This document shows, one piece after another, positions 13,877-64,000 of a DNA stretch of 64,000 nucleotides (position 1 is its first letter; every line of letters starts with the position of its first letter). Source of the DNA: a virus; the IMG/VR virus record IMGVR_UViG_3300045988_121102; one strand, given 5' to 3'. The position numbers were made by a program, and so were the translations under genes. Under the pieces are notes generated by a model, which was not told the origin of the DNA, did not search any database, and worked only from the letters and a program-made list of their open reading frames with translations.

Positions 13877-14782
13877 TTAGTCCTCCATAAACTCCGGAAC
13901 TTCTTTTGGAATGCTTTCCGCGTTTACAACTTCCGGTTCAATTGTTTCAGCTTCTACCGTATCTGGCACATCTTCCATGAACTCCTCTTTGTTGGCTTTC
14001 GTTTCGATATCGTATGCCATATCCTTTGCTGTCATATCATCGGATGATACAGTTTCGCTTCTGTCGCTTGCCTCCTGCATGTACCCATCTCCATACGTAT
14101 TCATGAACATTTTCAATGCACGATTAATAACCGTTTTCTTTACCATCTGATCGGTAAATTTGGCATGCGTGCCGTTTCCGCCCTCTTTGTATCCGAACCC
14201 CTGTGCCCAGGCTTTCTTAATCTGGTTCATGTTCATTACTTCCAAATAATGCTCTCCAGACTTAGTGATGGAAATCGCATATGCACCTTTAATTTTGTCT
14301 GTATCAATGTTCATAAAATCCTGCTTATGAGAATCGAAAACCTTTTTTCCGTCTTCGATATGATAAGAAAACTCATCTCCCTCGTAGATAACTTCTGCAC
14401 GAATTTCTTTCAATCCGTAGCGTCTGGCAATGGTAATATTTCCGAAGTATGAACGCTGGAACTGACACTGACCTCCGTAAGCAATGAAATACCCCTGCTT
14501 TTTCTGGACAGAAAGCCCTAATGTTGCCATATCCATTAAGCTGTTGGCGATACTTGCCTGTGAACAACTTTCAAGGATTGGCTTATTGTTTCTATCCTTG
14601 GTTTCTTTTAACACCAGATATGCGCCTGTCAATGCATTGGCTAGATTGTAATCTGCCGGAAATGACATTCCGTATTTACACTTTTCTTCCAGCTGATGAG
14701 TTAAACCGTTAATAAATGAATTGTTTACCACCAAATCAGTTGCTGTCTGCTGTTTCTGAATTTCCTGCTTTACTGCTGCCAT
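13877..14782 (-). CDS. recT: RecT-family single-strand annealing protein
   Basis: The size, the N-terminal pattern (..CSQASIANSLMDMATLGLS..) and the context with ssb and nuclease-fold genes fit RecT. Confidence 0.6.
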   Translation of the reverse strand: MAAVKQEIQKQQTATDLVVNNSFINGLTHQLEEKCKYGMSFPADYNLANALTGAYLVLKETKDRNNKPILESCSQASIANSLMDMATLGLSVQKKQGYFIAYGGQCQFQRSYFGNITIARRYGLKEIRAEVIYEGDEFSYHIEDGKKVFDSHKQDFMNIDTDKIKGAYAISITKSGEHYLEVMNMNQIKKAWAQGFGYKEGGNGTHAKFTDQMVKKTVINRALKMFMNTYGDGYMQEASDRSETVSSDDMTAKDMAYDIETKANKEEFMEDVPDTVEAETIEPEVVNAESIPKEVPEFMED

Positions 14783-20816: not shown

Positions 20817-21566
20817 TCATAATGTCTCGCTTCCTTTCTTGTTGAGAAATTTGTTTACAAAATAAACTTGTGCTTTACCGGTCACTTTTGGAGTTCTGGT
20901 TATGATATTGCAACCGTTTCCATTGATATGGGTACTTTCCTTAATTTCAAAAAGCCCCATTTCCATCGCTTTTTGCGTTGGCATATTCCAGTCTGCGCCT
21001 TTTCTTTTTATGAGATATCCATTCTCTCTCATCCACTCAAACAAGCGTCTCTGCCCGATTTTCACACCGTTCTGTTTGATCAGCTTTGCCAGGTCTCCAA
21101 CAAGAATAGATGTATGGCTTGTCGAAACTGCATCTGCGAAGATTTCCTTTGGCTTCATTCGCTCGTTATCTTCAAGTAAGATTGCATTACTAGATTTCAG
21201 CTTTTCTATCTCCCGATCTGCCATCTTCAAGGCTCTTGCAAAAATCTGTTCCGGTGTGTTCCACGCCTTTTCAAGATCGATGAAATACTGACGGTACAAT
21301 CTGCCTTTTTCAGATCTCTGGATCATGCAAATCTGCTTTGCCATATCAACAGAAATCTGGTAATCAACCATGTTCTGATTACCGCCAAGGGTAGGACATT
21401 TTTGGTACACCCTTTTCCAATCTACATTTTCTGTAAATCCATATTCAGCCATACGCGGAAACCATTTTCTAAAATCAGTACCAATTTCTAACCCCGCGTG
21501 CAATTCTCTTGCTGATACGGTAGGCTGCTCTCCGTCGTAGTTGACAGGAATTAGTGCTGTGGTCAT
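20817..21566 (-). CDS. antirepressor (AntA-like N-terminal domain, KilA-C-like C-terminal domain)
   Basis: VSARELHAGLEIGTDFRKWFPRMAEYGFTENVDW and LAKLIKQNGVKIGQRRLFEWMRENGYL. Confidence 0.65.
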   Translation of the reverse strand: MTTALIPVNYDGEQPTVSARELHAGLEIGTDFRKWFPRMAEYGFTENVDWKRVYQKCPTLGGNQNMVDYQISVDMAKQICMIQRSEKGRLYRQYFIDLEKAWNTPEQIFARALKMADREIEKLKSSNAILLEDNERMKPKEIFADAVSTSHTSILVGDLAKLIKQNGVKIGQRRLFEWMRENGYLIKRKGADWNMPTQKAMEMGLFEIKESTHINGNGCNIITRTPKVTGKAQVYFVNKFLNKKGSETL

Positions 21567-23409: not shown

Positions 23410-24258
23410 TCATGATTTATATTCATGATTCTGGAAATCATATTCTCCAACGATTTGCAATGCACCTGTTTTATCAGTTACCATGCATTGTCCTTCATGT
23501 ATTGTTTTGTCTGGGCAAAGAAAATATTTTTTCCCATCTGGTCCGTTATGATAACCAGTCAGCATATATCCCTCATCGTCAAACAGATACCATCCAGAAG
23601 TCCCGCCTGTTTTTTCTGTCAGCCAAAACCATCCGCTGTGCGCATAGCTTCCATCACTGTAGCGATACCACCAACGATTTCCGTCGGCGGCTTGAACGAA
23701 TCCTTCCGGCACTTTTACCGGCTCTTTTTGAGAGATTGCAGCTTTGAAATCTGCCCATGTATGTTTTGTATGATTATAGACATACGGATTCGGGCAAATT
23801 TTTCTAGTAACATCATAATGGCGAATAACTCTATCAGCTGGAACGTTGTATTTCTTCATCAATTCCCTGGTAAGTTGAATTGCGCTTTGAACTGTATCAT
23901 CCTCAAAATACCAATCTCGGCTGGTATCCGCCTTACTGCCTTTGTTTCTTACGCATAATTCGATGCCGATTGAATTAGAATTTCTACATTCTGGATGCAA
24001 ATATTTCCCCCTGGTTCCGCAGTGCCAAGCAATATTTTTAGCTTCAACTGATTGCCAGATTTCTCCGCTGAATCCAACATAGTAATGAGCGGATGCGCCT
24101 ACATATTGGCTTGCATAATAATTGCAGTTTGCTTCTGCACCGCCTGTTGCACCTACATAATGAATTACAATATATTTGATTCGATTGATACTCCCCGGTT
24201 TATAATTATATGGTGTCAGCTTTTTTTTAATCTCCATCATTAACACCTTCTTCTCCAT
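23410..24258 (-). CDS. N-acetylmuramoyl-L-alanine amidase endolysin with C-terminal cell-wall-binding repeats
   Basis: Amidase_2-like IVIHYVGA..SAHYYVG..NIAWHCG and GW/YF repeats (GWFWLTEKTGGTSGWYLFDDEGYMLTG). The true start may be the MMEIKKK ATG. Confidence 0.8.
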   Translation of the reverse strand: MEKKVLMMEIKKKLTPYNYKPGSINRIKYIVIHYVGATGGAEANCNYYASQYVGASAHYYVGFSGEIWQSVEAKNIAWHCGTRGKYLHPECRNSNSIGIELCVRNKGSKADTSRDWYFEDDTVQSAIQLTRELMKKYNVPADRVIRHYDVTRKICPNPYVYNHTKHTWADFKAAISQKEPVKVPEGFVQAADGNRWWYRYSDGSYAHSGWFWLTEKTGGTSGWYLFDDEGYMLTGYHNGPDGKKYFLCPDKTIHEGQCMVTDKTGALQIVGEYDFQNHEYKS

Positions 24259-37023: not shown

Positions 37024-37854
37024 TTATTTATCTGCGCGTCCAGTAATATGTACTTTTACATCGTCATAAGTTCCTGATGTTGAGTACATTTCAGCTGTAT
37101 AAGATTCTCCAGCCTGTAAACTAGCGCTTGCACCCATATAGACACGATAAAGATCTATCGGTTCTCCGTTTTTATAAAATACAGCAATCGCTTCTGGAAA
37201 ATCAATTTTAACAGAACCATTGTTCGTTGCTGCAACTATGGCTTTTTTGCTCTTCTTGATAACATTGGTTGAAATGTTCTGGAAAACAGGTTGCCAATAT
37301 TTTGTCTGCGTTACTTTTACTGTTGAATCAAACTCAGCTACATCTGGCGAATCAGAACAAATACTATACATGAAAAACGTAGTACCTGCCGGAATATCAC
37401 ATTCACTTAAGCTATCGGCGCTTACTGTCGAACCAACATGATTTTTTCCAACCTCGTTGATGGAAATATCTATAGTAAGAGCGCTATTATTGGTGATTTC
37501 GTACAGATGATATGTCGTATAATCATTTCCAAAAATCCAGTCAGAAATCATCAGATCCTTTGTGACTGAATCCGCCGAATACGTGATATGGGACCGGTTC
37601 TGAGTCTTGATTAACGCTCCATCAGCTCCAACACGCTGTCCATCCGGTGCTACTCCATTCGACAGCATATAGCCATCAGCTCCGAAGTAATAGTATTTTC
37701 CCTTGATTTCTTTCCAGGTATTCGTAGGATAGGAACCATCGTCCTCTTGATACCACCATCCCTTATCATCCTGTTTCCAGGAACCGGCAAATGCTGTTGA
37801 CGCCATGCTCAATGAAAGAGCTGCTGCTAATGCTAAAACTTTTAATTTTCTCAT
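37024..37854 (-). CDS. secreted protein with cell-wall-binding repeat
   Basis: Signal peptide MRKLKVLALAAALSLSMASTAFA followed by the repeat GWWYQEDDGSYPTNTWKEIKGKYYYFGADGYMLS. Confidence 0.65.
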   Translation of the reverse strand: MRKLKVLALAAALSLSMASTAFAGSWKQDDKGWWYQEDDGSYPTNTWKEIKGKYYYFGADGYMLSNGVAPDGQRVGADGALIKTQNRSHITYSADSVTKDLMISDWIFGNDYTTYHLYEITNNSALTIDISINEVGKNHVGSTVSADSLSECDIPAGTTFFMYSICSDSPDVAEFDSTVKVTQTKYWQPVFQNISTNVIKKSKKAIVAATNNGSVKIDFPEAIAVFYKNGEPIDLYRVYMGASASLQAGESYTAEMYSTSGTYDDVKVHITGRADK

Positions 37855-37880
37855 GCTGTACACCTCCCTACAATTTATAG

Positions 37881-39494: not shown

Positions 39495-40229
39495 CTACAG
39501 CGCCATAACCTGTTGAGCATTGGCGTTCCGGATCTCTTCTTCCAGAAAATACGGCGGCTGGTACGAATTGATGATATCGATCGCTTTATCACACTGACTC
39601 CGCTTAATGCTCTTATACGAACGCACTCCAAAATTATATTTCAGATTCGAATATAGGTTGCTGTATAATTTCTGTCGTAACCCTTTGTTCCTATACGCGC
39701 TGGAATTGATTCCGCCCAAAACCTCGACGCCCTTTTTCTTGGTCGCTGTCGTGATCCGCTCCGCCTCGATCGGGAGAATTGGAAGATCTGCTTTGATAGC
39801 TTCCACATCAGACTGAATCGTATCGATCCTTCGTTCCAATTCCACATTTCCCCTCGCAAGAAGCTGAATCTGCTCTGGGATCGTCAGCGGAATGCCATAC
39901 GAACCGGTTCTACGGATGCTTGGAAGCACCTCCGATGTTACCCAGCGTTTGAAACGTTTTGCAGAATCCAGTTTGCTGCCGAAGATCAATGAGTATAAAC
40001 CAGACTCATTGATAATTGTCATTTTCTGTTTTCCGCCAGGGGTCACTAATTCAGTGACCCCTTTATCTTCTTCTGAAACATGGTTCAAAATTGCATTATT
40101 GAGAGATTTCCCTTCTCCGTACCCTAATGCTTTAGCCACATCCTTACCGACAAACCACGGCTCATTATTAATAGTCGTTGTCCGGATGTCTCCGAACTCT
40201 TTGCTATTGAAAATCTGCATCTCTTCCAT
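39495..40229 (-). CDS. Bro-N-domain antirepressor-like protein
   Basis: QIFNSKEFGDIRTTTINNEPWFVGKDVAKALGY. Confidence 0.7.
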   Translation of the reverse strand: MEEMQIFNSKEFGDIRTTTINNEPWFVGKDVAKALGYGEGKSLNNAILNHVSEEDKGVTELVTPGGKQKMTIINESGLYSLIFGSKLDSAKRFKRWVTSEVLPSIRRTGSYGIPLTIPEQIQLLARGNVELERRIDTIQSDVEAIKADLPILPIEAERITTATKKKGVEVLGGINSSAYRNKGLRQKLYSNLYSNLKYNFGVRSYKSIKRSQCDKAIDIINSYQPPYFLEEEIRNANAQQVMAL

Positions 40230-40760: not shown

Positions 40761-43700
40761 CTAAAATGATACGCCTAATTGTTTACCGGTCCGCTTCCGA
40801 TACGAAGTGGCGGCTTTCTTATACTTACTCTGAAAAGCATTGTCATCAAAGACAAGACCTTTACTATTCATTTCTTCCAAAATCTGATTCTGTTCACTTA
40901 TCGTGCTTTGCAACTGCCGCATCTGATACGTGTACTCTGCCATTTTTACGTCCATCTCTCCCTGCATATTCAAGGAGAGAGCATCCATGTCAAGAGATGC
41001 AGATTTGAGATTCGGTTTTTTCGGCAAGTCAAAGTTTACCGTTGGAGTCTGCAAGGCGAAATTCTTGTTTATGCCTTTTGCCCATCCTTTTACCGCATCA
41101 TATGTGGAATCAGCGTTATCCGTAATTCCAAGATTGAATCCTTCGACGAAATACGCGCCAACTTTTTTCATGACCTTAGATGGGGATGCAACTCCACCTT
41201 CTTTTTCTGTTTGGCCAACTACAATAGATGCCAAATTCCTAGCGGCTGCTCCAATACTTCCCAATAATCCATTGTTTTGAAGACCCCTAAGAAATCCTTC
41301 TAGCATGAACTTTCCGACGCTTTCCATGCTATTGCCCTCTTCGTTACTAGCCGAATTCGCACTGTCATGAACAGTCCTGGGCAAATCCTTAGATGCATCC
41401 GATAACTGCCCTTTGAGCCCTTCATCTTTAATACCTTCAATCAGGTTCTGATCTACATCCAGGCCTAATTGTTTCAGTTTATTCACCAATGGTCCGCGCT
41501 CACTAGCTTCTGCCTTATCAATTTGCTGCAACAGGTTAATGGCGGTTGTTTGTGTCTCTGATTCCTTGCCTGCAATCGCTTTAATCAATTCATCCGGCAC
41601 ATCCAGGCCAAGACCATTAAACAGATTAATCAACTCTGGCTGTTTCAGTTGAACACCATTATTTACCTCCGTCAGCAGACCAATCACCGTGCTTTGAACT
41701 CCGGCATTCTGACTGGCGAGGTTTGTAATCAAATCTGACGGAAGTGTGATTCCCAAACTCTTGAACAAACTTTCAAGCTGTGGCTGTGTTGCCTGTACAC
41801 CAGAAGAAATATTTGCCAACAGTGTTGTTACACTCAACTGAACTTCTGGGGACTTATTGGCAAGAACTCCGATAAACTCATCAGTCATTTGCGGAGCAAT
41901 CTGTCCAAACAAAGTTTTCAGTTCTTCCGCTGATAACTGTGTCTGCTCCATCATCTTAGAGAACATCCCCTCAATAGCCGTGACTGAAATACTGTCGCTG
42001 GTTGCAATTTTCTGGGCGAAATCATCGGTAATCGTGATACCAAGATTCTGGAACTCTGTTTTGAGCCCTTCAATACCAGTTTGAATGGTTTGATTGTTTG
42101 TTGCTACTCCTGTAGCCGCGTTTTGATAGGCGGTACTGAAATATTCGATATCTCCATTAACATCTGACAACGCTTGTCTGGTATTTCCCAGTGTTTCCGT
42201 TGCTTGGTTAAACGCATCATTTGCTGCCTGGTATTCAGCGTCAATTTTTCTCCATTCTACACCGAACGGATCGTAGGTGGTTGTCATACTACCCTCTCCA
42301 CCAATTCTGCCAGCTTCTGCCTTTTTCTTATATTCATCAATTTTCTTTTGCGACTCCAAAAGTTTCTTCCTGGCTTCTGTCTGGGCATCAACCGCATCCG
42401 CAACTGCTTTTTCGCCCTTAATCTGCTTTTCATAAGACTCTTCCAAAGAACTCATAGCAGCTTTAGCTTGTGCTAACTCTTTCTGCTTATCAATGGTTTT
42501 TTGAAGTTCATCACGGTTGACTTCCAAAAGACCTGTTTCCCCGTTAAAGTACTGCTCCAGTTCCGGGTACATCTGAACCAGGTCCTTGCTATACTGTTTC
42601 ATTAAAGAAATGTCTTCTGCGGTTGGGTTGGCTTTACTATGAAGCGCTTCATACTTATTAGCCATATCTTCTGCCATTTTGGCTTGTGCTTCTCCGGCAG
42701 TTCCAAAATCATCCTTCATCTTTTGCGTGGAATCTCTCAGATCCTCGATACGCTGATTGATGTCTTTTTGGTGGGAATCGAAATTGCTTACCCATTCGTC
42801 AAGTTCTGGTGTTTCTGATAAGCCTTTGAGAAAACCACTCCACAGAGAAACAATGCCTGTAATTGCTGACACTGCTAATCCGGCTGGTCCAAACGCTGTA
42901 TAAAGAGCTGCGCTTGCCAATCCGGCGGCAGTAATGATAGCCATAATATTGGTGCTAAGATTTCCAACACCTGTTGCCAAATTCTGTGCGGCATTGTAAC
43001 AAGTAAGGAATTCTCCCGCAATAGCTCCAATACCTAATGCATATCGAGCAAATGTGGATAATTGACTTCCGATAGCCTGTAATGTTGTTGGTAATGCGCC
43101 AAGCCAATTTCCACTCTGTACGGAATCTCTAAATGTAGTAAATGCAGTTCTAAGCAAAACCACAACTTTTTCAGCTTTCGGCGCTGCTTCTTTTAACGCC
43201 ACAATGGCATCTGTACTACCTCCTAAAGCCGTTATAAACAGTTTCGCTTTTCCAACACTGTTTCCTAAAGCATTCGCAAATTTCTGAATGTTTCCGGTTT
43301 TCAACATCGCCGTTACACCAACCAATGTGAGCAACGCCGTCTGTAATGGTGCTGTTTCAAATGTTCCTTTGTAAAGGTTAAAAGCTGCGTTAATTCCGTT
43401 CCAAATTGCCTTTCCGACACTTGCTAGGATTTTGGCATAATCAATACTATTGAGGAATTTTCCGATCTGCTGACCGATCATCTCCCATTTGATTTTTGAC
43501 AGTGCCTCATTAATTGCTGTCAATAAGCCAAGCGCCCACGTGCTAATCGTATGCCCTAATAATCCAAAATCAAAAGTGGAAAAAAACTGGTTTACGCCTG
43601 CCGCTATGGAAGCACCAAAGTTTTTCCAGTCAAATGTAGTTCCGAATGAATCAAGGAAATGCAGTGCTGTATTCAGCGCTCCGGCAATCGTTCGACCTAA

Positions 43701-44312
43701 TGCCCCGAACAAATCTGGAGAAATCAGACCGTTCAAAAAATCTGCCAGACCTTTACCGAAATTCTCTGCACTTTGATAAATACTATCCCAGTCGATTCCG
43801 TTCATAGCATTTGTCAGTGTGGTTCCAATGTATTTTCCCAGTTCATACAGAGAATCTATCTCACTCTTATATTTCTCCAGAATAGAGTCTCTCTTAACCA
43901 GTTTAGCATCCGCACCATTGGCATTTCCGCCGCCTGCACCGCCACCTCCGCCAGAACCGCCAGATCCAGAGCCGTCATCTGATGTCATGTTGTTTACTTC
44001 ATGCCATGCTGCAATATAGCGGTTCAGCTTCTTTGCATTATCCGCAGCCTTGCCGGTTCCATCCGCCATATCCTCTGCACCTGCACCAGCCGCATCGAAA
44101 TCATTTGCCAGTCCTCCGGCATCGATTTCTATTGTCCAGCCGAAGATCGCGCCAAGCGCATTTGCTACCGTTTTTGCAAAAGCAATTACCGATTTCATGA
44201 CGCTATTCAGTGCTGTGATAAACGGCTTGAATGCATTAACTAAAACGCCACCAACAATTCCGCCTAATTGCTGGAATTGCTGTACTAAAATTCGCGTCTG
44301 ATTCGCCCATGT
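40761..44312 (-). CDS. tape measure protein, exon 2
   Basis: Begins (T)WANQTRILVQQFQQLGG, which continues the motif interrupted at the end of exon 1. Long helical protein with a Gly-rich stretch. Confidence 0.75.
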   Translation of the reverse strand, partial: TWANQTRILVQQFQQLGGIVGGVLVNAFKPFITALNSVMKSVIAFAKTVANALGAIFGWTIEIDAGGLANDFDAAGAGAEDMADGTGKAADNAKKLNRYIAAWHEVNNMTSDDGSGSGGSGGGGGAGGGNANGADAKLVKRDSILEKYKSEIDSLYELGKYIGTTLTNAMNGIDWDSIYQSAENFGKGLADFLNGLISPDLFGALGRTIAGALNTALHFLDSFGTTFDWKNFGASIAAGVNQFFSTFDFGLLGHTISTWALGLLTAINEALSKIKWEMIGQQIGKFLNSIDYAKILASVGKAIWNGINAAFNLYKGTFETAPLQTALLTLVGVTAMLKTGNIQKFANALGNSVGKAKLFITALGGSTDAIVALKEAAPKAEKVVVLLRTAFTTFRDSVQSGNWLGALPTTLQAIGSQLSTFARYALGIGAIAGEFLTCYNAAQNLATGVGNLSTNIMAIITAAGLASAALYTAFGPAGLAVSAITGIVSLWSGFLKGLSETPELDEWVSNFDSHQKDINQRIEDLRDSTQKMKDDFGTAGEAQAKMAEDMANKYEALHSKANPTAEDISLMKQYSKDLVQMYPELEQYFNGETGLLEVNRDELQKTIDKQKELAQAKAAMSSLEESYEKQIKGEKAVADAVDAQTEARKKLLESQKKIDEYKKKAEAGRIGGEGSMTTTYDPFGVEWRKIDAEYQAANDAFNQATETLGNTRQALSDVNGDIEYFSTAYQNAATGVATNNQTIQTGIEGLKTEFQNLGITITDDFAQKIATSDSISVTAIEGMFSKMMEQTQLSAEELKTLFGQIAPQMTDEFIGVLANKSPEVQLSVTTLLANISSGVQATQPQLESLFKSLGITLPSDLITNLASQNAGVQSTVIGLLTEVNNGVQLKQPELINLFNGLGLDVPDELIKAIAGKESETQTTAINLLQQIDKAEASERGPLVNKLKQLGLDVDQNLIEGIKDEGLKGQLSDASKDLPRTVHDSANSASNEEGNSMESVGKFMLEGFLRGLQNNGLLGSIGAAARNLASIVVGQTEKEGGVASPSKVMKKVGAYFVEGFNLGITDNADSTYDAVKGWAKGINKNFALQTPTVNFDLPKKPNLKSASLDMDALSLNMQGEMDVKMAEYTYQMRQLQSTISEQNQILEEMNSKGLVFDDNAFQSKYKKAATSYRKRTGKQLGVSF

Positions 44313-44606
44313 CACATAATGTTATCGTAAAGGCTTTTTATCCTCTACTTCTTACAGTTTCCTGTAAGGTCGGCGTACATATTCGACCCAGTAGGTCGTC
44401 GGTCACTCTTGGGGATATTTTATTCTATAACTCTTTCCAAAATAGAAAGAGCATAGGTTCAATCCCTACGCTCTACAATGTACTATATCTTTTATGATAT
44501 AGTCTTATCTCGGTATTAACTTATTGACAATAGACATCAACTTAGCCTTCACCGATTTTAACCGATTTTATCATAACGCATTACTGCGTTAGGCGGCACA
44601 CATTCT
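44313..44606 (-). mobile_element. group I intron (~294 nt) in the tape-measure gene
   Basis: P1 pairs exon GCGGU with the internal guide GCCGC, placing a U.G pair at the 5' splice site. GNRA hairpins ACGCA-GUAA-UGCGU and CUUACAG-GAAA-CUGUAAG are present, the intron ends in G, and the exons join in frame. Confidence 0.7.
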
Positions 44607-46166
44607 ACCGCTTGTTCTGGCGAAGTCTCCTTGCGCGATAGCAGTATTAGCCATAACATATTGATAACGCAACATCGTTTTTTGTGCCTGCGTCATCGAA
44701 GATATGTTCGCGTCAAGTCCGTTTTTCAACGCATATTCTTTTAAGGTCGTTTGGGTTAAGTCTAAGCCGTACTTACGCAGCGGCTCTGTCTCTCCTGAGA
44801 ATACAGCTTGTAAACTTCTCGCAACCTCTTTCTGTGACACATTGTAGAAAGAAGCCATATCCGCTGCCAGCTTAGTCAGTTCGATGGACATATCAGACAT
44901 CTTACCTTGTGCAAATCCCATCGCCATTCCCATTGCCTGGAAACGACCAGAAATTTGTTTCGCAGTCAACTCAGACATGCCGAAGTCCTGGATAGAATGC
45001 TGAGTCAGTTCATCAACCTTGCTTGCGTAATCGCCGAATGCGTTATCTACAACGTTCTGAACCTCTGTTAGGTCTGAAGAAATATCGACCGCTTTCTTAA
45101 ACCCTTGTAATGCCCTAAGCAACATCCAATAAGTCGCATAGAATTTTCCAATCGCACCGGCCAGACCAGAGAAGGATTTCTTAGCCTTGCTAGATGCACT
45201 TGGCAATGACAACAAGCCTTTTGACAGATTTCGAGAACTGTTTCCAGCCTTATTACCTGCATTTGCCAAATTTGCCAACGCCTGTGTCATTTCAAGCACA
45301 TTTTTGCTGACTTTCGGTGCGGTTGACAATGTTGTCAGCATCTCCTTCAGTGCTTTTGCCAGACTGGTAATATTTCCACTGGCAGCTCTGGTAGCCGTTA
45401 CTGTTCCAAGCTTTGAAATTCCATTAGCAAGTTCAGTCAATCCCTGTACATCAAACCCACTAAAATCCAATCCCTTTAATTCTGAGGACAGATTTTTGAT
45501 AGGTGCAATCAGTGCTGGAATATTGGCTGCCGCTTGAGTGACTGTCTTTCTGCCAAGCGTTCCGATCGCCGTCGCGATGTTTCTGATTCCAGTATCATCA
45601 AACTGGATTCCATTCAGCATTGCCAAATTGGATGCTAATTGCTGGATCCCGGCTGACGTCTGCCCGATCTCCTGCATTCCAGCCGCGGACGAAATACCAT
45701 TGGTGGCATTTGCCCCCTGCGCTGACATTCCACTGAGCATGGAAGTGATTCGCTGAATCGTGCTTTCCATCGACGTCAGAGAAGTGATTTCATTTTTCAC
45801 AGACGCAGAAACGACGCTGCCCTCTTGCTGAAATGCTTTGGTTTTCTCTTTTACTGCACTCGTTACTTCAGAAACTGTAGCTTTGAGATTTCCAAGCTCG
45901 GAACTTATTGTATTTTTTCCACCCGCTTGACTAGACAAATCAATACCTTTCATAGTATTTTGAAGCTCTGTTGCGGATCCTGATAACTTTGTAAATGTAG
46001 ATGATAAATTCGTCAGCTTACGAATATCAATCATATTCACACTGGATGCCAGTTTCTCCAGCGCATTTGACATTCGCTCAATTGATGCGTCCGCTCCCCC
46101 TACATCACTGGCTATTTCCAATAATAAAGAATCTATAACATTATCTGCTGCCATTTCTACCTCCAT
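44607..46166 (-). CDS. tape measure protein, exon 1
   Basis: Ends ..ANTAIAQGDFARTSG. The read-through ORF adds only RMCAA* from intron sequence. Confidence 0.75.
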
Positions 46167-56874: not shown

Positions 56875-58440
56875 TTACGACTGAACTTTACTATCATCAG
56901 TATTCATTCCGTCAATAATGGGAGAATTTCCAGTCTGATTGATTGGATCGCCCGAAGTATTAAAATTATGTTCCTGAGATGCATCAGAAGCAGATCCGCT
57001 ACTCTTCATATTCTCTTGGAGAGCATCTAACATATCCTTGGAATCCAGATATACTTGCTCAGTATCCTCGAACGCATCCACCATTTTAAGAATATGTCGC
57101 GGATGTATTCCGGCATTGAAATATGTCGCAAACGTATTCGCCTTAACACTCATGTCTGTGTTTTTCTTGCGCGTGAAGTGCAAATCGATATCACTGGTAT
57201 GAATCAATCGAATTGGCGCATCCATCGGAAGTTTTCTTTCTGGCACTTTAGCAATCGCTTTCAAAATCAGTGATAATTCTTCACGTTTACCATGTGCGAT
57301 CATCTGTTGCTCACGAACCGCATCCAGTTCTGTGGCACTCCAGCCTGCTGACATATCTGTGGCGCTTCCTGTTGAACCACCACCAGAATTGTCATATTGA
57401 AGAGGGATCTTACAATCTTGCAGAATTTCTGTTCTGGTAGTCTGAATAGCATTCAATGTACTAGAACCATCAAACGTACTGGAAAGCGGTTGTATCTTAG
57501 ATACTTTTCCATCGTCAGAAAAGGTGCACACCCATTCTCCACTCTTAGGACTTCTGCTTTTTCCGTCTTTATCTATAAACGATACGTTATCAGCCCACCA
57601 TATTTCCTGTGTGCGTTGTGCTACATCATTGGTGAAATCCGAAAGCAGAACATTCAGTGCATCCATTCTGGCTATTTCTCGTTCAAAACATCCAGTGCGG
57701 TCGAAAGCACGTTCATACTCAACAATCGGTATTTTCTCAAGCGGATTTTTTTCTTCGCTAACAATTTCTCCGTTTTCTACTTCAAATCTGCTCTTATCTG
57801 TATAGCAGGTAAAGTATTCCGAACCATCACGGCAGGAAAAACTCACACCTAATACTTTTTTTTGACCAGGACCATCATAATAAACCACAAAAGCATACTG
57901 TGAATCCAATGTATATAAATCCACCAGAGAACCATCGTCCCAATCATCCGTCTTGATATCAACCATTCGATGACCAATACCACACACTTCAACAAATTCT
58001 GCCATGCACTGATCTAGCCATCCAATGTTTTCCCCGTTGATTAGAGTTTCATTCAAGGCAGAAATTCCAGAATCGTCTGTATTGGAATCTGTATCGTGCA
58101 ACTCTTTATTACCGCGCTGCACCATCGTAACCGGGTTTCCCCAGTTATACGCGATTTTGAACTCTTTCACATAATTCGCCAAATTTGCATGTACTCGGAT
58201 GTCGATATCTGGACGTATTGTTTTTGGACGAACAAGAGGCTGTTTTCCACGTTCATACTCAATCAGGAACTTCATCTCTTTGACATTTTCTCTGTGGATA
58301 TTCATTGCTTTATCCAATACTTCCAAAAGATTGTTTCTGTCTATATTTTTATACCTGCTATAAATTCTTTTTCTCCCTATCAACTGTCTTGGCCTACCAT
58401 TGATGGCAATTACTTTCTCTTCTGATTCCATGCAAAACAC
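56875..58440 (-). CDS. portal protein
   Basis: 521 aa, between the terminase and the head morphogenesis gene. Confidence 0.7.
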   Translation of the reverse strand: MFCMESEEKVIAINGRPRQLIGRKRIYSRYKNIDRNNLLEVLDKAMNIHRENVKEMKFLIEYERGKQPLVRPKTIRPDIDIRVHANLANYVKEFKIAYNWGNPVTMVQRGNKELHDTDSNTDDSGISALNETLINGENIGWLDQCMAEFVEVCGIGHRMVDIKTDDWDDGSLVDLYTLDSQYAFVVYYDGPGQKKVLGVSFSCRDGSEYFTCYTDKSRFEVENGEIVSEEKNPLEKIPIVEYERAFDRTGCFEREIARMDALNVLLSDFTNDVAQRTQEIWWADNVSFIDKDGKSRSPKSGEWVCTFSDDGKVSKIQPLSSTFDGSSTLNAIQTTRTEILQDCKIPLQYDNSGGGSTGSATDMSAGWSATELDAVREQQMIAHGKREELSLILKAIAKVPERKLPMDAPIRLIHTSDIDLHFTRKKNTDMSVKANTFATYFNAGIHPRHILKMVDAFEDTEQVYLDSKDMLDALQENMKSSGSASDASQEHNFNTSGDPINQTGNSPIIDGMNTDDSKVQS

Positions 58441-58963: not shown

Positions 58964-61705
58964 CTAAAATGGACTTGTCATAATTCTGGTTCGTGAAACT
59001 CCACTGCCCTTATTCAAAAATACTGCTAATGCCGCCAATGAGTCCGGTGCATCATCATGCTTATTTTTACCAGTGATTGTAAAACTGTAAACTTGATTAA
59101 GAAACTTTCGATATTCTTTTGATTGACAACCTGAATCTCGAAAATAAAAGCTCCGAATAGCTTGTGCATTATCCCATATTCTTTGTTCCTTTCGTTGCGA
59201 TGTTTTTTTTCCTCCTTTTCCGGCATTGACGATCATCTGTTGTGCAAATCTGGAAATCAAATTGATTTGAACTCCACGTTCTTTCAGCATTCCATTTATA
59301 TCATCCTTGTAACCTTCGCCACCATTATTCGCCTCAAAAAAGGCATTCGACACATGATTCCTGATTAACGCATCCAAGACTTTCGGCTGTGTAATCATCT
59401 TTTCGCTGCTATCAAACACAACGTCATGAATGTAAACCGAACCATCTTCATATACATAAGCAATTGGCATGGAAAGATAGTCTGTTCCGCCCAAAGCCAC
59501 ATCACACGCAGCGACCACTTTCAGCGGTGCCACATCAGGCAACACACCATTGTAAAAATTCATATGCTCTGGGTTAAATACCGCGCCATCACGTTCAATC
59601 GGTTCCTGCTGACATTGTGCGAACCACGATGCCATATCGTCATTTTCTTCAAATTTTGCACGTTCAATTCGATAATATTTCGTACTGAACCCGACATTAT
59701 AATCATAATCAAAGTTGGATTCATCTGTTTCTGGGTCTAGCGCCGGTATCTTTAAAACTTCCCATCTGATTCCTTTTGCCTCTGGATTGTTCTCCAGAAA
59801 TCCCATACGATTCATATAGATATCATGCAGACTCCAAATGGTTCCGTTATAAAGGACCTTGCATTTCTCTTTTTTACGTTTCATAAGGTTGTTATCAAAC
59901 AACATCTGCTTTCGTGCTAAAACATCCGGACTCAAAACATCCTCAATACCTGCCAAAATATCATCCGCTACCAGCCATCCGGTCGCATCGTACAAACCGT
60001 TCAAACCAGATGTCAGACCTTTTCCAGACAATGACTTGTATTTCTTCTTGCGCTCCAAATCAACGGTATTAGCTTTAGCATCAGTGGATACGATTCTGGC
60101 ATTTGGAAAAACATCTGTATGTAGATAAATCGGATCTGTCCATATTTCCTTTACGCCATCAAGAAATGCCCCTCCAGCATCCTCTTTATATGAACAGTAA
60201 AGATTACTCAGCTCTGTATTTCGGCAGCAATGCCATGCCATTCCAAGTGTGATTATCTGCGTATTATGTGTTGGAACCATTGTTTTCCCAACCAAATACA
60301 AACCATCACTATTTGAAACCGTAATGCAGTTGCCTTGTTTTGGAATGCTTCTTGTGATTGATTTGATAGAAATCCTATGTTTCTTTGAAAATTCTTTTAG
60401 TTTCTTTCGTTCGATTGTACATGGTATTTCAATTGTTGGATTAAATCCAATGGTATATACTGCATTTCTACCAATTACACCACTGCTTGATATTTTCGGT
60501 TCTTTCTTTTTTATAGATGCTCTCCATCCAAACGTGGATATTAAAGAAACAAAGTCGTTTTTTAACGTTTCATTTGCGGTTGAAAACTGATATCTTCTTT
60601 CTTTTCTAATCAAACATCCATCCGTGTCCAGCAAGCCCGCCAAAAGTTCCAGTCGCTGCTTTACAGAAGCACATAAATATTCTTTCGGTATGTGTTTATT
60701 ACAAATTTTCGTATAATAACACATATCATAAGTTCTTAAATCGTCTACCAGTTCCCTGCCAAATACTGTTGTTATTACCCCTGTCGTTTTATGAACGTAT
60801 TGATGTTTTATTGGATATCCATACTTTACAATTTTATCGACAATAGCAGAATCCGATTGAGGCCCAGAAATGGCAGGCTTTTTATTGGTTCCATCACCCA
60901 ACCAGGCCCCTAAAACATACGGATGTACTTTTAGTTGCATTTCCGTTCCTGCCATTATCGGCTTTTGAGGAAGATAAAATCTATATCTATCATTAAATCG
61001 TTCTTTTCCTATTAAGTTTTGAGTTTCTTCTGTTTCCCAGACACCTCTTTTTTTGTCATAGACAGTCCATTCGTGTCTAAAGTGGCATTCAATCTTTGTG
61101 CCATCGGACAATTCCACTGTATGAGTTGTATGATATTTAGGATGAACGCAAATCACTGTAGTAAACTTTCCATCGCTACCAATGACTTGATCTCCTAATT
61201 TTAATTCTCCGTGAGTTTTCCATCCACTCTTTGTAAACACTGGCGTATCATCGGCTAATAGCTTACCAACACGCGCCGGCATGTGAATAAATCCCTCATC
61301 CAGCTGATCATCTTCCAGTCGTTGAAGCAGATTGACAACCTTTATCAATGTCTTGCGTCTAGGCTGATAAAAGCGTTCCTGGGGTTTTCTATCCTTTTCA
61401 ACATACAAAGCATAAGAATCCAACAGATCTGGAGCTTCAAATAAAAGCAACTGCCAGTACAAATCATCAAAATTTCCACTTCCTGTTTGTGCTGCCCTAT
61501 AAGCCGCCATCTGATGCAAATATTGACTGATTTTCAACGCACAGTCTTTAACATCCTTATGTTCAGCGAATACATAATCGCTACGCATATTCAAAATAAG
61601 CTGAAACAAATCTTCCTGGCTTTGATAATCTTTCAAACCACATTTCATAATCCGGTCCGCAATGTATTTATACCATTCAAGACTGCCCTCTATTAATTTT
61701 GACAT
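58964..61705 (-). CDS. terL: terminase large subunit (intein-containing precursor)
   Basis: The exteins rejoin to give PARVGK|TQIITLG (Walker A GKT). The nuclease half lies downstream. Confidence 0.8.
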   Translation of the reverse strand: MSKLIEGSLEWYKYIADRIMKCGLKDYQSQEDLFQLILNMRSDYVFAEHKDVKDCALKISQYLHQMAAYRAAQTGSGNFDDLYWQLLLFEAPDLLDSYALYVEKDRKPQERFYQPRRKTLIKVVNLLQRLEDDQLDEGFIHMPARVGKLLADDTPVFTKSGWKTHGELKLGDQVIGSDGKFTTVICVHPKYHTTHTVELSDGTKIECHFRHEWTVYDKKRGVWETEETQNLIGKERFNDRYRFYLPQKPIMAGTEMQLKVHPYVLGAWLGDGTNKKPAISGPQSDSAIVDKIVKYGYPIKHQYVHKTTGVITTVFGRELVDDLRTYDMCYYTKICNKHIPKEYLCASVKQRLELLAGLLDTDGCLIRKERRYQFSTANETLKNDFVSLISTFGWRASIKKKEPKISSSGVIGRNAVYTIGFNPTIEIPCTIERKKLKEFSKKHRISIKSITRSIPKQGNCITVSNSDGLYLVGKTMVPTHNTQIITLGMAWHCCRNTELSNLYCSYKEDAGGAFLDGVKEIWTDPIYLHTDVFPNARIVSTDAKANTVDLERKKKYKSLSGKGLTSGLNGLYDATGWLVADDILAGIEDVLSPDVLARKQMLFDNNLMKRKKEKCKVLYNGTIWSLHDIYMNRMGFLENNPEAKGIRWEVLKIPALDPETDESNFDYDYNVGFSTKYYRIERAKFEENDDMASWFAQCQQEPIERDGAVFNPEHMNFYNGVLPDVAPLKVVAACDVALGGTDYLSMPIAYVYEDGSVYIHDVVFDSSEKMITQPKVLDALIRNHVSNAFFEANNGGEGYKDDINGMLKERGVQINLISRFAQQMIVNAGKGGKKTSQRKEQRIWDNAQAIRSFYFRDSGCQSKEYRKFLNQVYSFTITGKNKHDDAPDSLAALAVFLNKGSGVSRTRIMTSPF
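60263..61261 (-). mobile_element. intein (333 aa) with LAGLIDADG homing endonuclease
   Basis: N-terminal LLADDTPV, block B ..CHFRHEW, LAGLIDADG motifs LGAWLGDG and LLAGLLDTDG, block F GNCITV, and a C-terminal VPTHN|T. Confidence 0.75.
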
Positions 61706-61785
61706 ATAAAAAGAACCACGCTCCCCCTTTATCAAAAAGTGAAGTCATGGCTCTCTAAATATTGGCTCTCTTGACTAACTATCCA

Positions 61786-63081: not shown

Positions 63082-63155
63082 TGGACCATCAGGGAATTGA
63101 ACCCCGGACACACGGCTTATAAGGCCGCCGCTCTAACCGTCTGAGCTAATGGTCC
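63082..63155 (-). tRNA. tRNA-Ile (anticodon UAU)
   Basis: Perfect 7-bp acceptor stem GGACCAT/ATGGTCC, a D arm, the anticodon loop CTTATAA and a T arm CGGGG-TTCAATT-CCCTG. Confidence 0.85.
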
Positions 63156-63295
63156 TTAGCAGAAGGCAGATTGGGTAAAATCCTTCTGCTGTTGCAGTTC
63201 ACAAACCACCAGCCGCAACAAAGGTATTATCCACAGAGGGTATCAATGTGAATAATCGGGCACCCTGTTAGCCGGGAAGCACAGAGTATCCCGAA

Positions 63296-63368
<73 letters not shown>

Positions 63369-63382
63369 AAAACGAATATCTA

Positions 63383-63658
63383 CTATTCGTTTAATGACTC
63401 TCTGAATGGCTGATGCGTCCAGAATTTGATGTCATGATGAGCTGGAACATCATACACAATGCCGGTGGTCGGAACTTTGCACGAACGTGCCTTTCTGACA
63501 ACCTTCTCAAAGCTACCAAATTTATCAATCTGAATGCGTTTTCCCTTTTTCAGTTCACGCCGCATGACTTCCAGAAACTTATCAACGATGATCTTGGTCT
63601 CATTTTCCTCAATGCCAGTTTCTTTAGCAACCATTCTAATCATTTCTAGTCTGTGCAT
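63383..63658 (-). CDS. HU/IHF-family DNA-binding protein
   Basis: ..IQIDKFGSFEKVVRKARSCKVPTTG.. matches the HU beta-arm pattern. Confidence 0.75.
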   Translation of the reverse strand: MHRLEMIRMVAKETGIEENETKIIVDKFLEVMRRELKKGKRIQIDKFGSFEKVVRKARSCKVPTTGIVYDVPAHHDIKFWTHQPFRESLNE

Positions 63659-63690
63659 ACTCTTTCACTTCCTTTCCTTAATGCTGTTAA

Positions 63691-63771
63691 TACAGATAGT
63701 GGGACTTGAACCCACATGATGTAAATCGTCAGATTTTGAGTCTGATGCGTCTTCCATTCCGCCATATCTGC
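63691..63771 (-). tRNA. tRNA-Leu (anticodon CAA), class II
   Basis: Anticodon loop CTCAAAA, a long variable arm and the T arm GTGGG-TTCAAGT-CCCAC. Confidence 0.8.
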
Positions 63772-63941
63772 ACATGTAAGTGTAAACCCTGTAAATCACT
63801 TACCATTTATTTTTTTACCGACCATGAACTTTACCCAACACATCAAACACTTAATGCGACTACACAAAGCTGTTGCAAGTATTTATATATAAACCTCTAG
63901 CCTCTCCATAACGAGATTTATTCTAAGGATTTTTGGTCAAA

Positions 63942-64000
63942 CTGGAGCAGTCAGACTTAAACTGACGACATCTTGATTAAAAGTCAAGCGCTCTAACCAA
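63942..64000 (-). tRNA. tRNA-Lys (anticodon UUU), 5' end truncated by the window edge
   Basis: Part of the D arm, the anticodon loop CTTTTAA, the T arm GTCAG-TTTAAGT-CTGAC and the 3' acceptor strand. Confidence 0.7.

What the first reader, a model, noticed from the sequence alone, without database searches (positions are those of the whole stretch)
60263..61261. Intein with non-nucleophilic first residue (class-3-like WCT signature) and LAGLIDADG endonuclease in the terminase P-loop
The 923-aa terminase ORF contains a 333-aa insertion placed exactly between the K and T of the Walker A motif (..PARVGK | LLADDTPVF ... TMVPTHN | TQIITLG..). The insert has Hint blocks and two LAGLIDADG motifs (LGAWLGDG and LLAGLLDTDG).

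Its first residue is Leu rather than Cys, Ser or Thr. At the same time block B carries Trp (HFRHEW), block F carries Cys (GNCITV) and block G has Thr before His-Asn (PTHN). This Trp/Cys/Thr combination is the described signature of class 3 inteins, which splice through a block-F cysteine branch intermediate.

Together with the intron and the GIY-YIG gene, this phage carries at least three selfish-element types.
Basis: partly seen in the sequence, partly recalled or inferred. Interest (0 to 1): 0.65.

Follow-up and report, generated by a model that had tools for sequence, protein, structure and literature searches.

The report
Class 3 intein in terminase P-loop
A gut phage's DNA-packaging enzyme gene is interrupted, inside its ATP-binding loop, by a self-splicing protein element of the rarer "class 3" type that also carries a homing nuclease; the call is correct, but this arrangement is already known from other phages.

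Summary
Window 60263-61261(-) encodes a 333-aa insertion in the large terminase (TerL), exactly between Lys and Thr of PARVGK|T.

The boundary is now empirical. A metagenomic allele (P0121/L001) has the same exteins and lacks precisely these 999 bp.

The insert is a Hint domain split by a LAGLIDADG endonuclease:
- AlphaFold2 model: pLDDT 93.7.
- Best structural match: PI-SceI, TM 0.78.
- Closest solved sequence relatives: the class 3 DnaB mini-inteins 6BS8 and 6RIX.

It meets every sequence criterion of class 3: Leu1, His63/Trp65 in block B, Cys312 in block F, Thr331-His-Asn333, and Thr+1. All 81 full-length relatives also lack a position-1 nucleophile and keep the Cys and Thr; Trp is kept in all but one.

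The arrangement is not new. Gordonia phage APunk (also Leu1) and Bacteroides phage B124-14 carry homologous class 3 inteins at the same TerL site. The 2010 paper that defined the class already named terminase P-loops.

What this analysis adds: closely related gut (Lachnospiraceae-type) phage contigs carry empty, 152-aa mini-intein, 333-aa and 347-aa alleles at this site. They show a ~31-bp flank patch and strong purifying selection on the endonuclease, which points to active homing.

Verdict: a new member of a known kind, of modest interest.

The parts
58964..61705 (-). Terminase large subunit (TerL) precursor gene, 913 aa from the ATG at 61705. The mechanical ORF extends to a TTG at 61735, giving 923 aa.
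   Evidence: ORF list. Homologous gene calls start at MSKLIEGS. The spliced product hits PHROG phrog_38 'terminase large subunit' at E = 7e-51. tblastn finds annotated TerLs. The gene lies next to an SPP1-type portal gene at 56875-58440(-).
61262..61705 (-). N-extein (148 aa), ending in the Walker A/P-loop residues HMPARVGK.
   Evidence: It differs from the N-extein of the intein-less allele P0121 by one residue (N to D).
60263..61261 (-). Intein, 333 aa (Leu1 to Asn333), with the class 3 signature.
   Evidence: Translation. These exact 999 bp are absent from L001. PDB phmmer hits class 3 DnaB inteins 6bs8, 6rix and 6riy. AF2 pLDDT is 93.7 and Foldseek finds PI-SceI at TM 0.78.
60977..61261 (-). 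N-terminal half of the Hint domain (about intein aa 1-95). Block A is LLADDTPV, with Leu1 at codon 61259-61261. Block B is ..ECHFRHEW, with His63 (B10) at codon 61073-61075 and Trp65 (B12) at codon 61067-61069.
   Evidence: Aligns to residues 2-69 of the 6bs8 chain. In 82 aligned inteins, H is 82/82 and W is 81/82. dN/dS is 0.014.
60392..60976 (-). LAGLIDADG homing-endonuclease domain (about intein aa 96-290). Motif 1 is LGAWLGDG at 60890-60913 (Asp123). Motif 2 is LLAGLLDTDG at 60617-60646 (Asp214). The block D NKHIP lysine is also present.
   Evidence: Pfam LAGLIDADG_3 at E = 1.9e-6, above its cut-off. PI-SceI matches by sequence (E = 2e-6) and by fold. The catalytic Asp residues are conserved 82/82 and 80/82. 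dN/dS is 0.072.
60263..60391 (-). C-terminal half of the Hint domain (intein aa 291-333). Block F is GNCITV, with Cys312 (F4) at codon 60326-60328. Block G is MVPTHN, with Thr331 at 60269-60271, His332 at 60266-60268 and Asn333 at 60263-60265.
   Evidence: Aligns to 6bs8 residues 106-139 with MVPTHN identical. C, T and H are 82/82 and N is 81/82.
58964..60262 (-). C-extein (432 aa plus stop), starting with Thr+1 (codon 60260-60262), the Walker A Thr and the splice acceptor.
   Evidence: It is 100% identical in protein to the intein-less allele.
60245..61274 (-). The intein plus the 13 nt (5') and 18 nt (3') of extein that travel with it. This is the inferred co-conversion tract or homing-site patch.
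   Evidence: In a second phage lineage, the intein-bearing alleles (L014, L015) differ from the intein-less allele (L013) by 7 substitutions in the last 13 nt before the site and 6 in the first 18 nt after it. Mismatches are 0-1 per 30 nt over the next 120 nt upstream and 0-3 over the next 60 nt downstream.

Best explanation
This is a mobile class 3 intein with an embedded LAGLIDADG homing endonuclease. It is inserted between Lys and Thr of the Walker A (P-loop) motif of the large terminase of a roughly 90-kb siphovirus-like phage of gut Clostridia/Lachnospiraceae.

Protein level (inferred from sequence and from characterised relatives). The precursor cannot bind ATP because the P-loop is split. 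Leu1 has no nucleophilic side chain. Cys312 (block F position 4), activated by His63 and Trp65 of block B, therefore attacks the Lys(-1)-Leu1 peptide bond and forms a thioester branch on the intein. Thr+1 then takes over the N-extein by transesterification. Asn333 cyclises, helped by His332, and releases the intein. An O-to-N shift restores ...GK-TQ..., giving an active 580-aa TerL.

DNA level (inferred from population data). The free intein's two-motif LAGLIDADG nuclease cuts intein-less TerL alleles at the P-loop codons during co-infection. Repair copies the intein together with about 13 + 18 nt of flanking extein. Endonuclease-less 152-aa mini-inteins and empty sites co-circulate, as the homing-cycle model expects.
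For: Shown by computation:
- Exact boundaries, from an intein-less allele with the same exteins.
- Hint plus LAGLIDADG fold: pLDDT 93.7; PI-SceI TM 0.78; class 3 DnaB mini-inteins TM 0.76-0.83 normalised to the target.
- The best solved sequence relatives are the biochemically characterised class 3 inteins Msm and Mch DnaBi1, with HEW/HQW, C and MVPTHN aligned (PMC6195587, PMC7664689).
- In 82 aligned inteins (this one plus 81 relatives), position 1 is A/L/G/Q and never C/S/T. B10 His is 82/82, B12 Trp 81/82, F4 Cys 82/82, G5 Thr 82/82, G7 Asn 81/82 and +1 Ser/Thr 82/82.
- Both LAGLIDADG Asp residues are present and conserved.
- dN/dS is 0.05 over the whole intein and 0.07 over the endonuclease. 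Intein dS is about 2.3 against 0.08 in the adjacent C-extein, so the intein alleles are much older than the phage backbones they sit in.
- The same TerL family holds empty, 152-aa, 333-aa and 347-aa alleles.
- A 31-bp flank patch is specific to intein-bearing alleles.
- The host protein is TerL.

From the literature: the class 3 mechanism and its signature (PMC2807308, PMC5222942).
Against: - No biochemical evidence exists for this particular intein. Splicing, the Cys312 thioester and endonuclease cleavage are all inferred.
- Pfam does not recognise the Hint halves.
- The flank patch could reflect cleavage-resistant target variants rather than co-conversion; the data do not separate the two.
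- dS for the intein comparison is saturated, so the dN/dS values are approximate.
- Block B position 7 is His, not the Asp seen in most relatives or the Thr of class 1 inteins. The consequence is unknown.
Confidence: 0.88

Rival explanations
1. The intein splices by a class 2-like route. Thr+1 attacks the N-terminal scissile bond directly, and Cys312 only positions or activates it without forming a thioester branch.
For: Like class 2 (KlbA) inteins, it lacks a position-1 nucleophile. No experiment here tells the two routes apart.
Against: Class 2 inteins lack the WCT triplet and have Asp at F4 and Cys at +1 (PMC2807308). This intein has the complete triplet and Thr+1, and it is homologous to inteins in which the F4 Cys is obligate. 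Cys F4 is invariant in 82/82 aligned inteins.
Confidence: 0.05
2. The intein splices, but its endonuclease is inactive. The element would then be inherited only vertically or moved by general recombination, not by homing.
For: Many intein endonucleases are degenerate. HEN-less mini-inteins are the commonest intein-bearing allele among the close relatives: 23 of the 120 best TerL cluster representatives, against 3 with full-size inteins. No cleavage assay exists.
Against: Both catalytic Asp residues and the block D Lys are intact. Endonuclease dN/dS is 0.07 over a saturated dS. Divergent intein alleles sit in near-identical exteins, and a tight 31-bp flank patch accompanies the intein in a second lineage.
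Confidence: 0.12
3. The segment is a non-splicing insertion domain or decayed intein, and this TerL copy is non-functional or works with the insertion in place.
For: Pfam finds no Hint or intein-splicing domain.
Against: All catalytic residues are intact and under strong purifying selection. The insertion splits GK|T of the Walker A motif of an essential packaging ATPase. It is the only TerL-like ORF seen in an otherwise intact head-morphogenesis module. The predicted fold is a complete Hint horseshoe.
Confidence: 0.02
4. It is a canonical class 1 intein whose true boundary lies elsewhere and begins with Cys or Ser.
For: None found. Some relatives have Cys at position 2 (LCADDTPV).
Against: The intein-less allele reads PARVGKTQIITLG, and the DNA alignment breaks exactly at 60263/61261. 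Any other boundary would leave extra residues inside the Walker A motif.
Confidence: 0.01

Closest known systems
Gordonia phage APunk TerL intein (actinobacteriophage cluster DE4; treated as class 3 in bioRxiv 10.1101/2025.01.02.630785)
   Same: - 39.8% identity over all 333 aa.
- Same insertion point, ...SQVGK|LVAHDTPV...TPTHN|S.
- Leu at position 1, HEW, a block F Cys (GRCVEV) and a LAGLIDADG endonuclease.
   Different: - Actinobacterial host with a high-GC genome.
- Unrelated TerL extein family.
- +1 is Ser, not Thr.
- F3 is Arg, not Asn.
Bacteroides phage B124-14 TerL intein
   Same: - 37% identity.
- Same GK|S P-loop site.
- WCT triplet (HEW, GNCIQV, VPTHN).
- Gut phage.
   Different: - First residue is Glu.
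- Bacteroidota host.
- The genome record annotates only 'terminase large subunit', with no intein feature under the match.
Mycobacterium smegmatis and M. chimaera DnaBi1 class 3 mini-inteins (PDB 6BS8, 6RIX, 6RIY)
   Same: - Best solved sequence relatives (E = 6e-13).
- P-loop GK|S-type insertion.
- Non-nucleophilic residue 1, HQW/HEW, F4 Cys and an identical MVPTHN.
- Splicing by the class 3 route is experimentally supported (PMC6195587; PMC7664689).
   Different: - Mini-inteins of 139-146 aa without an endonuclease.
- Host protein is a cellular replicative helicase.
- First residue is Ala.
- B7 is Asp, against His here.
Mycobacteriophage Bethlehem DnaB intein (MP-Be DnaB), the class 3 prototype
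   Same: - Phage-borne.
- LAGLIDADG-containing and of similar size (341 aa against 333).
- WCT triplet and Thr+1 (PMC2807308).
   Different: - First residue is Pro.
- Host protein is a DnaB-like helicase, not a terminase.
- Its sequence was not compared directly here.
Mycobacteriophage TerL1-a 'classic' P-loop intein site (Kelley et al. 2016, PMC5050341)
   Same: The intein lies between the invariant Lys and the Thr of the TerL Walker A motif. TerL inteins of that study were shown to splice and to have active endonucleases.
   Different: In that paper the inteins explicitly placed in class 3 are TerL1-c, -d and -e, at other sites. I could not establish the class of TerL1-a from the text available to me.
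PI-SceI (yeast VMA1 intein)
   Same: Best structural match to the whole model (TM 0.78, E = 4e-18). It has the same Hint plus two-motif LAGLIDADG architecture.
   Different: It is a class 1 intein (Cys1) with 16-19% identity, and its extra DNA-recognition region makes it about 120 aa longer.

Membership tests
Class 3 intein (Tori et al. 2010, PMC2807308) | The N-terminal residue of the intein is not Cys, Ser or Thr. | tested here: met
   The first residue is Leu. The boundary is fixed by the intein-less allele P0121/L001. Relatives have A, L, G or Q at this position.
Class 3 intein (Tori et al. 2010, PMC2807308) | WCT triplet: Trp at block B position 12, Cys at block F position 4 and Thr at block G position 5. 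| tested here: met
   Trp65, Cys312 and Thr331 align to the corresponding residues of 6bs8 and 6rix. Conservation is 81/82, 82/82 and 82/82 in aligned inteins.
Class 3 intein (Tori et al. 2010, PMC2807308) | [quoted passage not shown] | tested here: met
   Thr+1. It is also the Walker A Thr.
Class 3 intein (Tori et al. 2010, PMC2807308) | Block B His (B10), the penultimate His and the C-terminal Asn. | tested here: met
   His63, His332 and Asn333 are conserved 82/82, 82/82 and 81/82.
Class 3 intein (Tori et al. 2010, PMC2807308) | Hint (horseshoe) fold, with homology to validated class 3 inteins. | tested here: met
   phmmer E = 5.7e-13 to 6bs8. AF2 pLDDT is 93.7, and Foldseek TM normalised to the target is 0.76-0.83 for 6bs8, 6rix and 6riy.
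Class 3 intein (Tori et al. 2010, PMC2807308) | Mechanism: an obligate block F Cys thioester branch, and N-terminal cleavage that does not depend on the +1 nucleophile. | not testable with these tools
   This needs expression and mutagenesis (C312A/S, T+1A, N333A).
Intein-associated LAGLIDADG homing endonuclease | Two LAGLIDADG motifs, each ending in a catalytic acidic residue, in one chain. | tested here: met
   LGAWLGDG (Asp123) and LLAGLLDTDG (Asp214), conserved 82/82 and 80/82.
Intein-associated LAGLIDADG homing endonuclease | A profile match above the curated threshold, and the matching fold. | tested here: met
   Pfam LAGLIDADG_3 scores 28.5 bits against a cut-off of 22.5. Hom_end scores 20.6 against 21.1, just below. 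Foldseek finds PI-SceI, TliVMA, PI-PfuI and I-DmoI.
Intein-associated LAGLIDADG homing endonuclease | Site-specific cleavage of the intein-less allele, followed by homing. | tested here: inconclusive
   The support is indirect only: dN/dS of 0.07, intein dS far above extein dS, polymorphic empty, mini and full alleles, and a 31-bp flank patch. There is no cleavage assay.
Phage terminase large subunit | Homology to TerL ATPase and nuclease domains, and a position in the packaging/head gene module. | tested here: met
   phrog_38 at E = 7e-51 on the spliced protein. 38.8% identity over 94% of the query to the TerL of Clostridium phage Maintenon. An SPP1-type portal gene lies immediately downstream. 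Pfam alone is weak: Terminase-T7_RNaseH-like scores 13 bits against a cut-off of 27.
Phage terminase large subunit | An intact Walker A motif (xxxxGK[ST]) after splicing. | tested here: met
   The spliced junction PARVGK-T equals the sequence of the intein-less alleles.

The most novel reading that the evidence does not exclude
The intein may be more than a passenger. It could be a conditional, redox-sensitive switch on DNA packaging in a phage of strict anaerobes.

Its closest solved relative, Msm DnaBi1, is reversibly locked by a disulfide between the catalytic block F Cys and a second Cys (PMC6195587). This intein and 9 of the 13 inteins in its TerL clade carry an extra Cys in block B, at position 6 (Cys59), four residues before the catalytic His. 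Oxidation could trap the TerL precursor until reducing conditions return.

Nothing here tests this. No model coordinates were available to measure the Cys59-Cys312 distance.
Probability: 0.08. Interest if true: 0.6.

Novelty: new member of a known kind. Interest (0 to 1): 0.3.

Why it matters
For annotation, this TerL must be read as a 580-aa mature protein plus a 333-aa intein. Pfam-based pipelines will miss the Hint part.

For intein biology it adds no new principle. Class 3 inteins in terminase P-loops have been described since 2010 and number in the hundreds in actinobacteriophages.

The useful by-products are:
1. A clean natural allelic series at one site in nearly identical human-gut phage genomes: empty, a 152-aa mini-intein, and two lineages of full-size inteins. 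It comes with a sharply delimited ~31-bp flank patch. This makes a good test bed for the homing-cycle model using public metagenomes.
2. A naturally minimised 152-aa class 3 mini-intein with Leu1 and Thr+1 from a mesophilic, low-GC background. It could be tried as a protein-engineering tool.

Tried and rejected
- Megablast of the TerL gene against 50,697 phage records found nothing. There is no close cultured relative at the DNA level.
- The Pfam scan of the whole precursor gave no Hint, intein-splicing or terminase ATPase domain. Only LAGLIDADG_3, a sub-threshold Hom_end and a weak T7 RNaseH-like hit appeared. PDB phmmer, database homologues and structure prediction were needed instead.
- A Cys/Ser-first alternative boundary was considered and rejected on the evidence of the intein-less allele. 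The position-2 Cys in some relatives (LCADDTPV) cannot be the start without corrupting GK[ST].
- I looked for the first residues and terminase members listed in the supplement of Tori et al. 2010. No supplementary text is held.
None was found, but not every ORF was scanned with a profile.
- Rfam at gathering thresholds found no intron. The permissive search found a sub-threshold group I match.
- The mini-intein is not a recent deletion derivative of the window's own intein. Synonymous divergence in the shared Hint parts (dS 0.7-1.6) far exceeds that of the flanks (dS 0.08-0.16).
Full report
**1. Observation**

The finding's coordinates are exact, but the feature is on the minus strand. The mechanical ORF 58964..61735(-) is 923 aa from a TTG. 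Gene calls on homologous contigs start at the ATG ten codons later (61705, MSKLIEGS...), giving a 913-aa precursor.

Window 60263-61261(-) translates to 333 aa, LLADDTPVFTKSGW...GKTMVPTHN. It is flanked by ...FIHMPARVGK and TQIITLGMAWH.... All quoted motifs are present (intein numbering):
- HFRHEW at 60-65
- GAWLGDG at 118-124
- LLAGLLDTDG at 206-215
- GNCITV at 310-315
- PTHN at 330-333

**2. Boundary**

I searched the conceptually spliced protein against 5.8 billion proteins. This returned P0121, a 580-aa protein that differs from the spliced product by one residue (N to D) and reads ...HMPARVGKTQIITLG.... Its contig (L001) is about 97% identical to the window at the DNA level. The alignment breaks exactly at the 999 bp of 60263-61261.

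The host protein is a large terminase:
- The spliced form hits PHROG phrog_38 at E = 7e-51.
- It is 38.8% identical to the annotated TerL of Clostridium phage Maintenon.
- The gene sits upstream of a 137-aa ORF of unknown function and an SPP1-type portal gene.

**3. What the insert is**

Pfam recognises only the endonuclease part: LAGLIDADG_3 at 28.5 bits against a cut-off of 22.5, and Hom_end just below its cut-off. It finds no Hint domain.

phmmer against PDB sequences identifies both Hint halves. The best hits are the class 3 DnaB mini-inteins of M. smegmatis (6BS8, E = 5.7e-13) and M. chimaera (6RIX, 6RIY). In these alignments query HEW aligns to HQW, nCitV to rCveV, and MVPTHN is identical. 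The middle of the insert matches PI-SceI.

An AlphaFold2 model built on a 34-sequence alignment is confident (pLDDT 93.7, pTM 0.90). Foldseek against the PDB gives:
- PI-SceI as the best overall match (TM 0.78, E = 4e-18).
- Then the TliVMA, PhoVMA and PI-PfuI inteins.
- The class 3 DnaB mini-inteins at TM 0.76-0.83 normalised to the target.

**4. Class 3 membership**

The class is defined by three sequence features (PMC2807308): a non-nucleophilic first residue, a co-varying Trp(B12)/Cys(F4)/Thr(G5) triplet, and Ser/Thr at +1. All are met here: Leu1, Trp65, Cys312, Thr331 and Thr+1. His63 (B10), His332 and Asn333 are also present.

Among 81 full-length relatives plus the query:

| Position | Residues |
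|---|---|
| 1 | A 71, L 8, G 2, Q 1; never C/S/T |
| B10 His | 82/82 |
| B12 Trp | 81/82 |
| F4 Cys | 82/82 |
| G5 Thr | 82/82 |
| G7 Asn | 81/82 |
| +1 | S 80, T 2 |

The relatives fall into three groups:
- Metagenomic TerLs of several families with the intein at the same GK|[ST] point (40-52% identity).
- dCTP deaminases (EGK|ALALDTP...PTHN|SS).
- DnaB helicases (GVGK|ALSLDTP...).

The mechanism itself (Cys312 thioester branch, transfer to Thr+1, Asn cyclisation, O-to-N shift) is inferred from characterised relatives (PMC2807308, PMC5222942, PMC6195587, PMC7664689). It is not shown here.

**5. Novelty**

The arrangement is already known.
- The paper that defined class 3 states that such inteins occur in helicase-like proteins, including phage terminase large subunits, and mostly in the P-loop (PMC2807308).
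- Kelley et al. 2016 describe class 3 TerL inteins and the 'classic' K|T P-loop site in mycobacteriophages (PMC5050341).
- A 2025 survey counts 287 class 3 inteins in actinobacteriophages, largely in TerL and Cas4 (10.1101/2025.01.02.630785).

tblastn of the intein against 50,697 phage records finds 832 records. I read two of them:
- Gordonia phage APunk TerL has ...SQVGK|LVAHDTPV...HPRHEW...GRCVEV...TPTHN|S. It also has Leu1 and is 39.8% identical.
- Bacteroides phage B124-14 TerL has ...PQTGK|ELSDSTLV...HGKHEW...GNCIQV...VPTHN|S and is 37% identical.

This is therefore a new member of a known kind, in a new host background. No DNA-level relative exists among cultured phages.

**6.

Among the 120 best TerL relatives (cluster representatives), allele states at this site are:
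- At least 28 are intein-less.
- 23 carry a 152-aa endonuclease-less mini-intein with nearly the same Hint halves.
- 2 carry 333-aa inteins.
- 1 (P0158) carries a different 347-aa class 3 intein (AEPLDALVLT...HLW...QCIMV...VTHN|T).

I compared the window with L005, which has a full-size intein in a closely related backbone. The intein's synonymous divergence is saturated (dS about 2.3), while the adjacent C-extein has dS 0.08. dN/dS is 0.014 for Hint-N, 0.072 for the endonuclease and 0.057 for Hint-C. The intein alleles are therefore much older than the phage backbones that carry them. Both the splicing and the endonuclease functions are under purifying selection.

In a second TerL lineage I compared L013 (empty), L015 (mini) and L014 (full). 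The intein-bearing alleles differ from the empty one by 7 substitutions in the last 13 nt before the site and 6 in the first 18 nt after it. Mismatches are 0-1 per 30 nt over the next 120 nt upstream and 0-3 over the next 60 nt downstream. The patch changes ARTGK/SQMITMG to ARVGK/TQIITLG.

This ~31-bp patch has the size of a LAGLIDADG recognition site. It is best read as a short co-conversion tract, or as the difference between cleavable and resistant target sites. Either reading implies homing. This part is inference; no cleavage was measured.

**7. Host and genome context**

- All large ORFs lie on the minus strand, and GC content is 40%.
- The window encodes an Amidase_2 endolysin, a choline-binding-repeat protein, RecT, antirepressors, a replisome organiser and an N6/N4 methylase.
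- Related contigs are 86-94 kb and come from human-gut metagenomes.
- Intein-less TerL relatives at 79% identity lie in genomes of the gut isolates Clostridium sp. OF03-18AA and AM30-24.
- A TerL at 69% identity with a related class 3 intein (GK|LIEDDAPV...PTHN|S) lies in a Lachnospiraceae MAG.

The host is therefore probably a gut Clostridia/Lachnospiraceae species.

**8. Rival explanations**

- A class 2-like direct attack by Thr+1 cannot be excluded without mutagenesis. It is unlikely given the invariant F4 Cys and the homology to inteins in which that Cys is obligate.
- An inactive endonuclease is possible but disfavoured by the selection and population data.
- A non-splicing insertion or a shifted class 1 boundary is effectively excluded.

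**9. Verdict**

The feature is ordinary for specialists, with modest added value from the allelic series and the natural class 3 mini-intein. Interest is 0.3.

Noticed in passing
window 44351-44616 (-): There is a full-length (model positions 1-253) but sub-threshold match to the Rfam group I intron model (40.4 bits against a gathering score of 50, E = 7.5e-7). It lies between the end of a 525-aa ORF (44589-46166) and the start of an 1184-aa ORF (40761-44315) on the same strand, as if it split one long gene. Neither ORF had a Pfam hit.
   Followed up: partly
window, all ORFs: No GIY-YIG gene was found. Strict and loose GIY...YIG motif scans over all ORFs of at least 60-70 aa gave nothing convincing, and Pfam on 20 ORFs gave no GIY-YIG hit.
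   Followed up: partly
window 63082-64000 (-): A tRNA cluster lies upstream of the packaging module: tRNA-Ile(TAT), tRNA-Thr(TGT), tRNA-Leu(CAA), and a fourth tRNA cut by the window end (63942-64000). An HU-like DNA-binding protein gene lies among them at 63383-63658.
   Followed up: no
L002-L004 (gene 6001-8199 in L002); proteins P0122-P0130, P0137-P0152: A natural 152-aa class 3 mini-intein (LLADDTPVFTKDGW...HFRHEW...GNCITVSNSDGLYLVGKTMVPTHN) sits at the same TerL site. In it, window 60368-61055 (the endonuclease) is replaced by a 145-nt linker. It is the commonest intein-bearing allele among close relatives; P0125 alone is indexed in 50 blocks of the collection.
   Followed up: partly
P0158 (924 aa): A second, unrelated-looking class 3 intein (347 aa; AEPLDALVLT...KEHLW...CQCIMV...IVTHN|T; only about 30% identical to the window's intein in alignment A1) occupies the identical K|T site in a TerL whose best local alignment to the query is 78% identical. 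This suggests independent invasions of one site.
   Followed up: no
window 61085-61087 (-), intein Cys59 (block B position 6): An extra Cys lies four residues before the catalytic block B His. It is present in 9 of 13 inteins of the TerL clade and 23 of 82 overall. The closest solved relative uses a second Cys for redox control of splicing (PMC6195587).
   Followed up: partly
window 58964-61735 (-): Pfam-A finds no Hint or intein-splicing domain and no terminase ATPase domain in this precursor. Pipelines relying on Pfam would label it only as a LAGLIDADG protein.
   Followed up: yes
P0154 (589 aa, NCBI source): This database protein looks chimeric. A TerL N-terminal fragment runs to ...RAKFEE and is then followed by a second, more divergent TerL segment restarting at ...TLSGKGLESGLNG. 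It is probably an assembly or recombination artefact in a related phage.
   Followed up: no
window 39495-40229 (-), 20817-21566 (-), 13877-14782 (-), 23410-24258 (-), 37024-37863 (-): Context genes: Bro-N/ORF6C, an AntA/ANT antirepressor, RecT, an Amidase_2 endolysin and a choline-binding-repeat protein. These fit a phage of a Gram-positive host, possibly temperate in origin.
   Followed up: no
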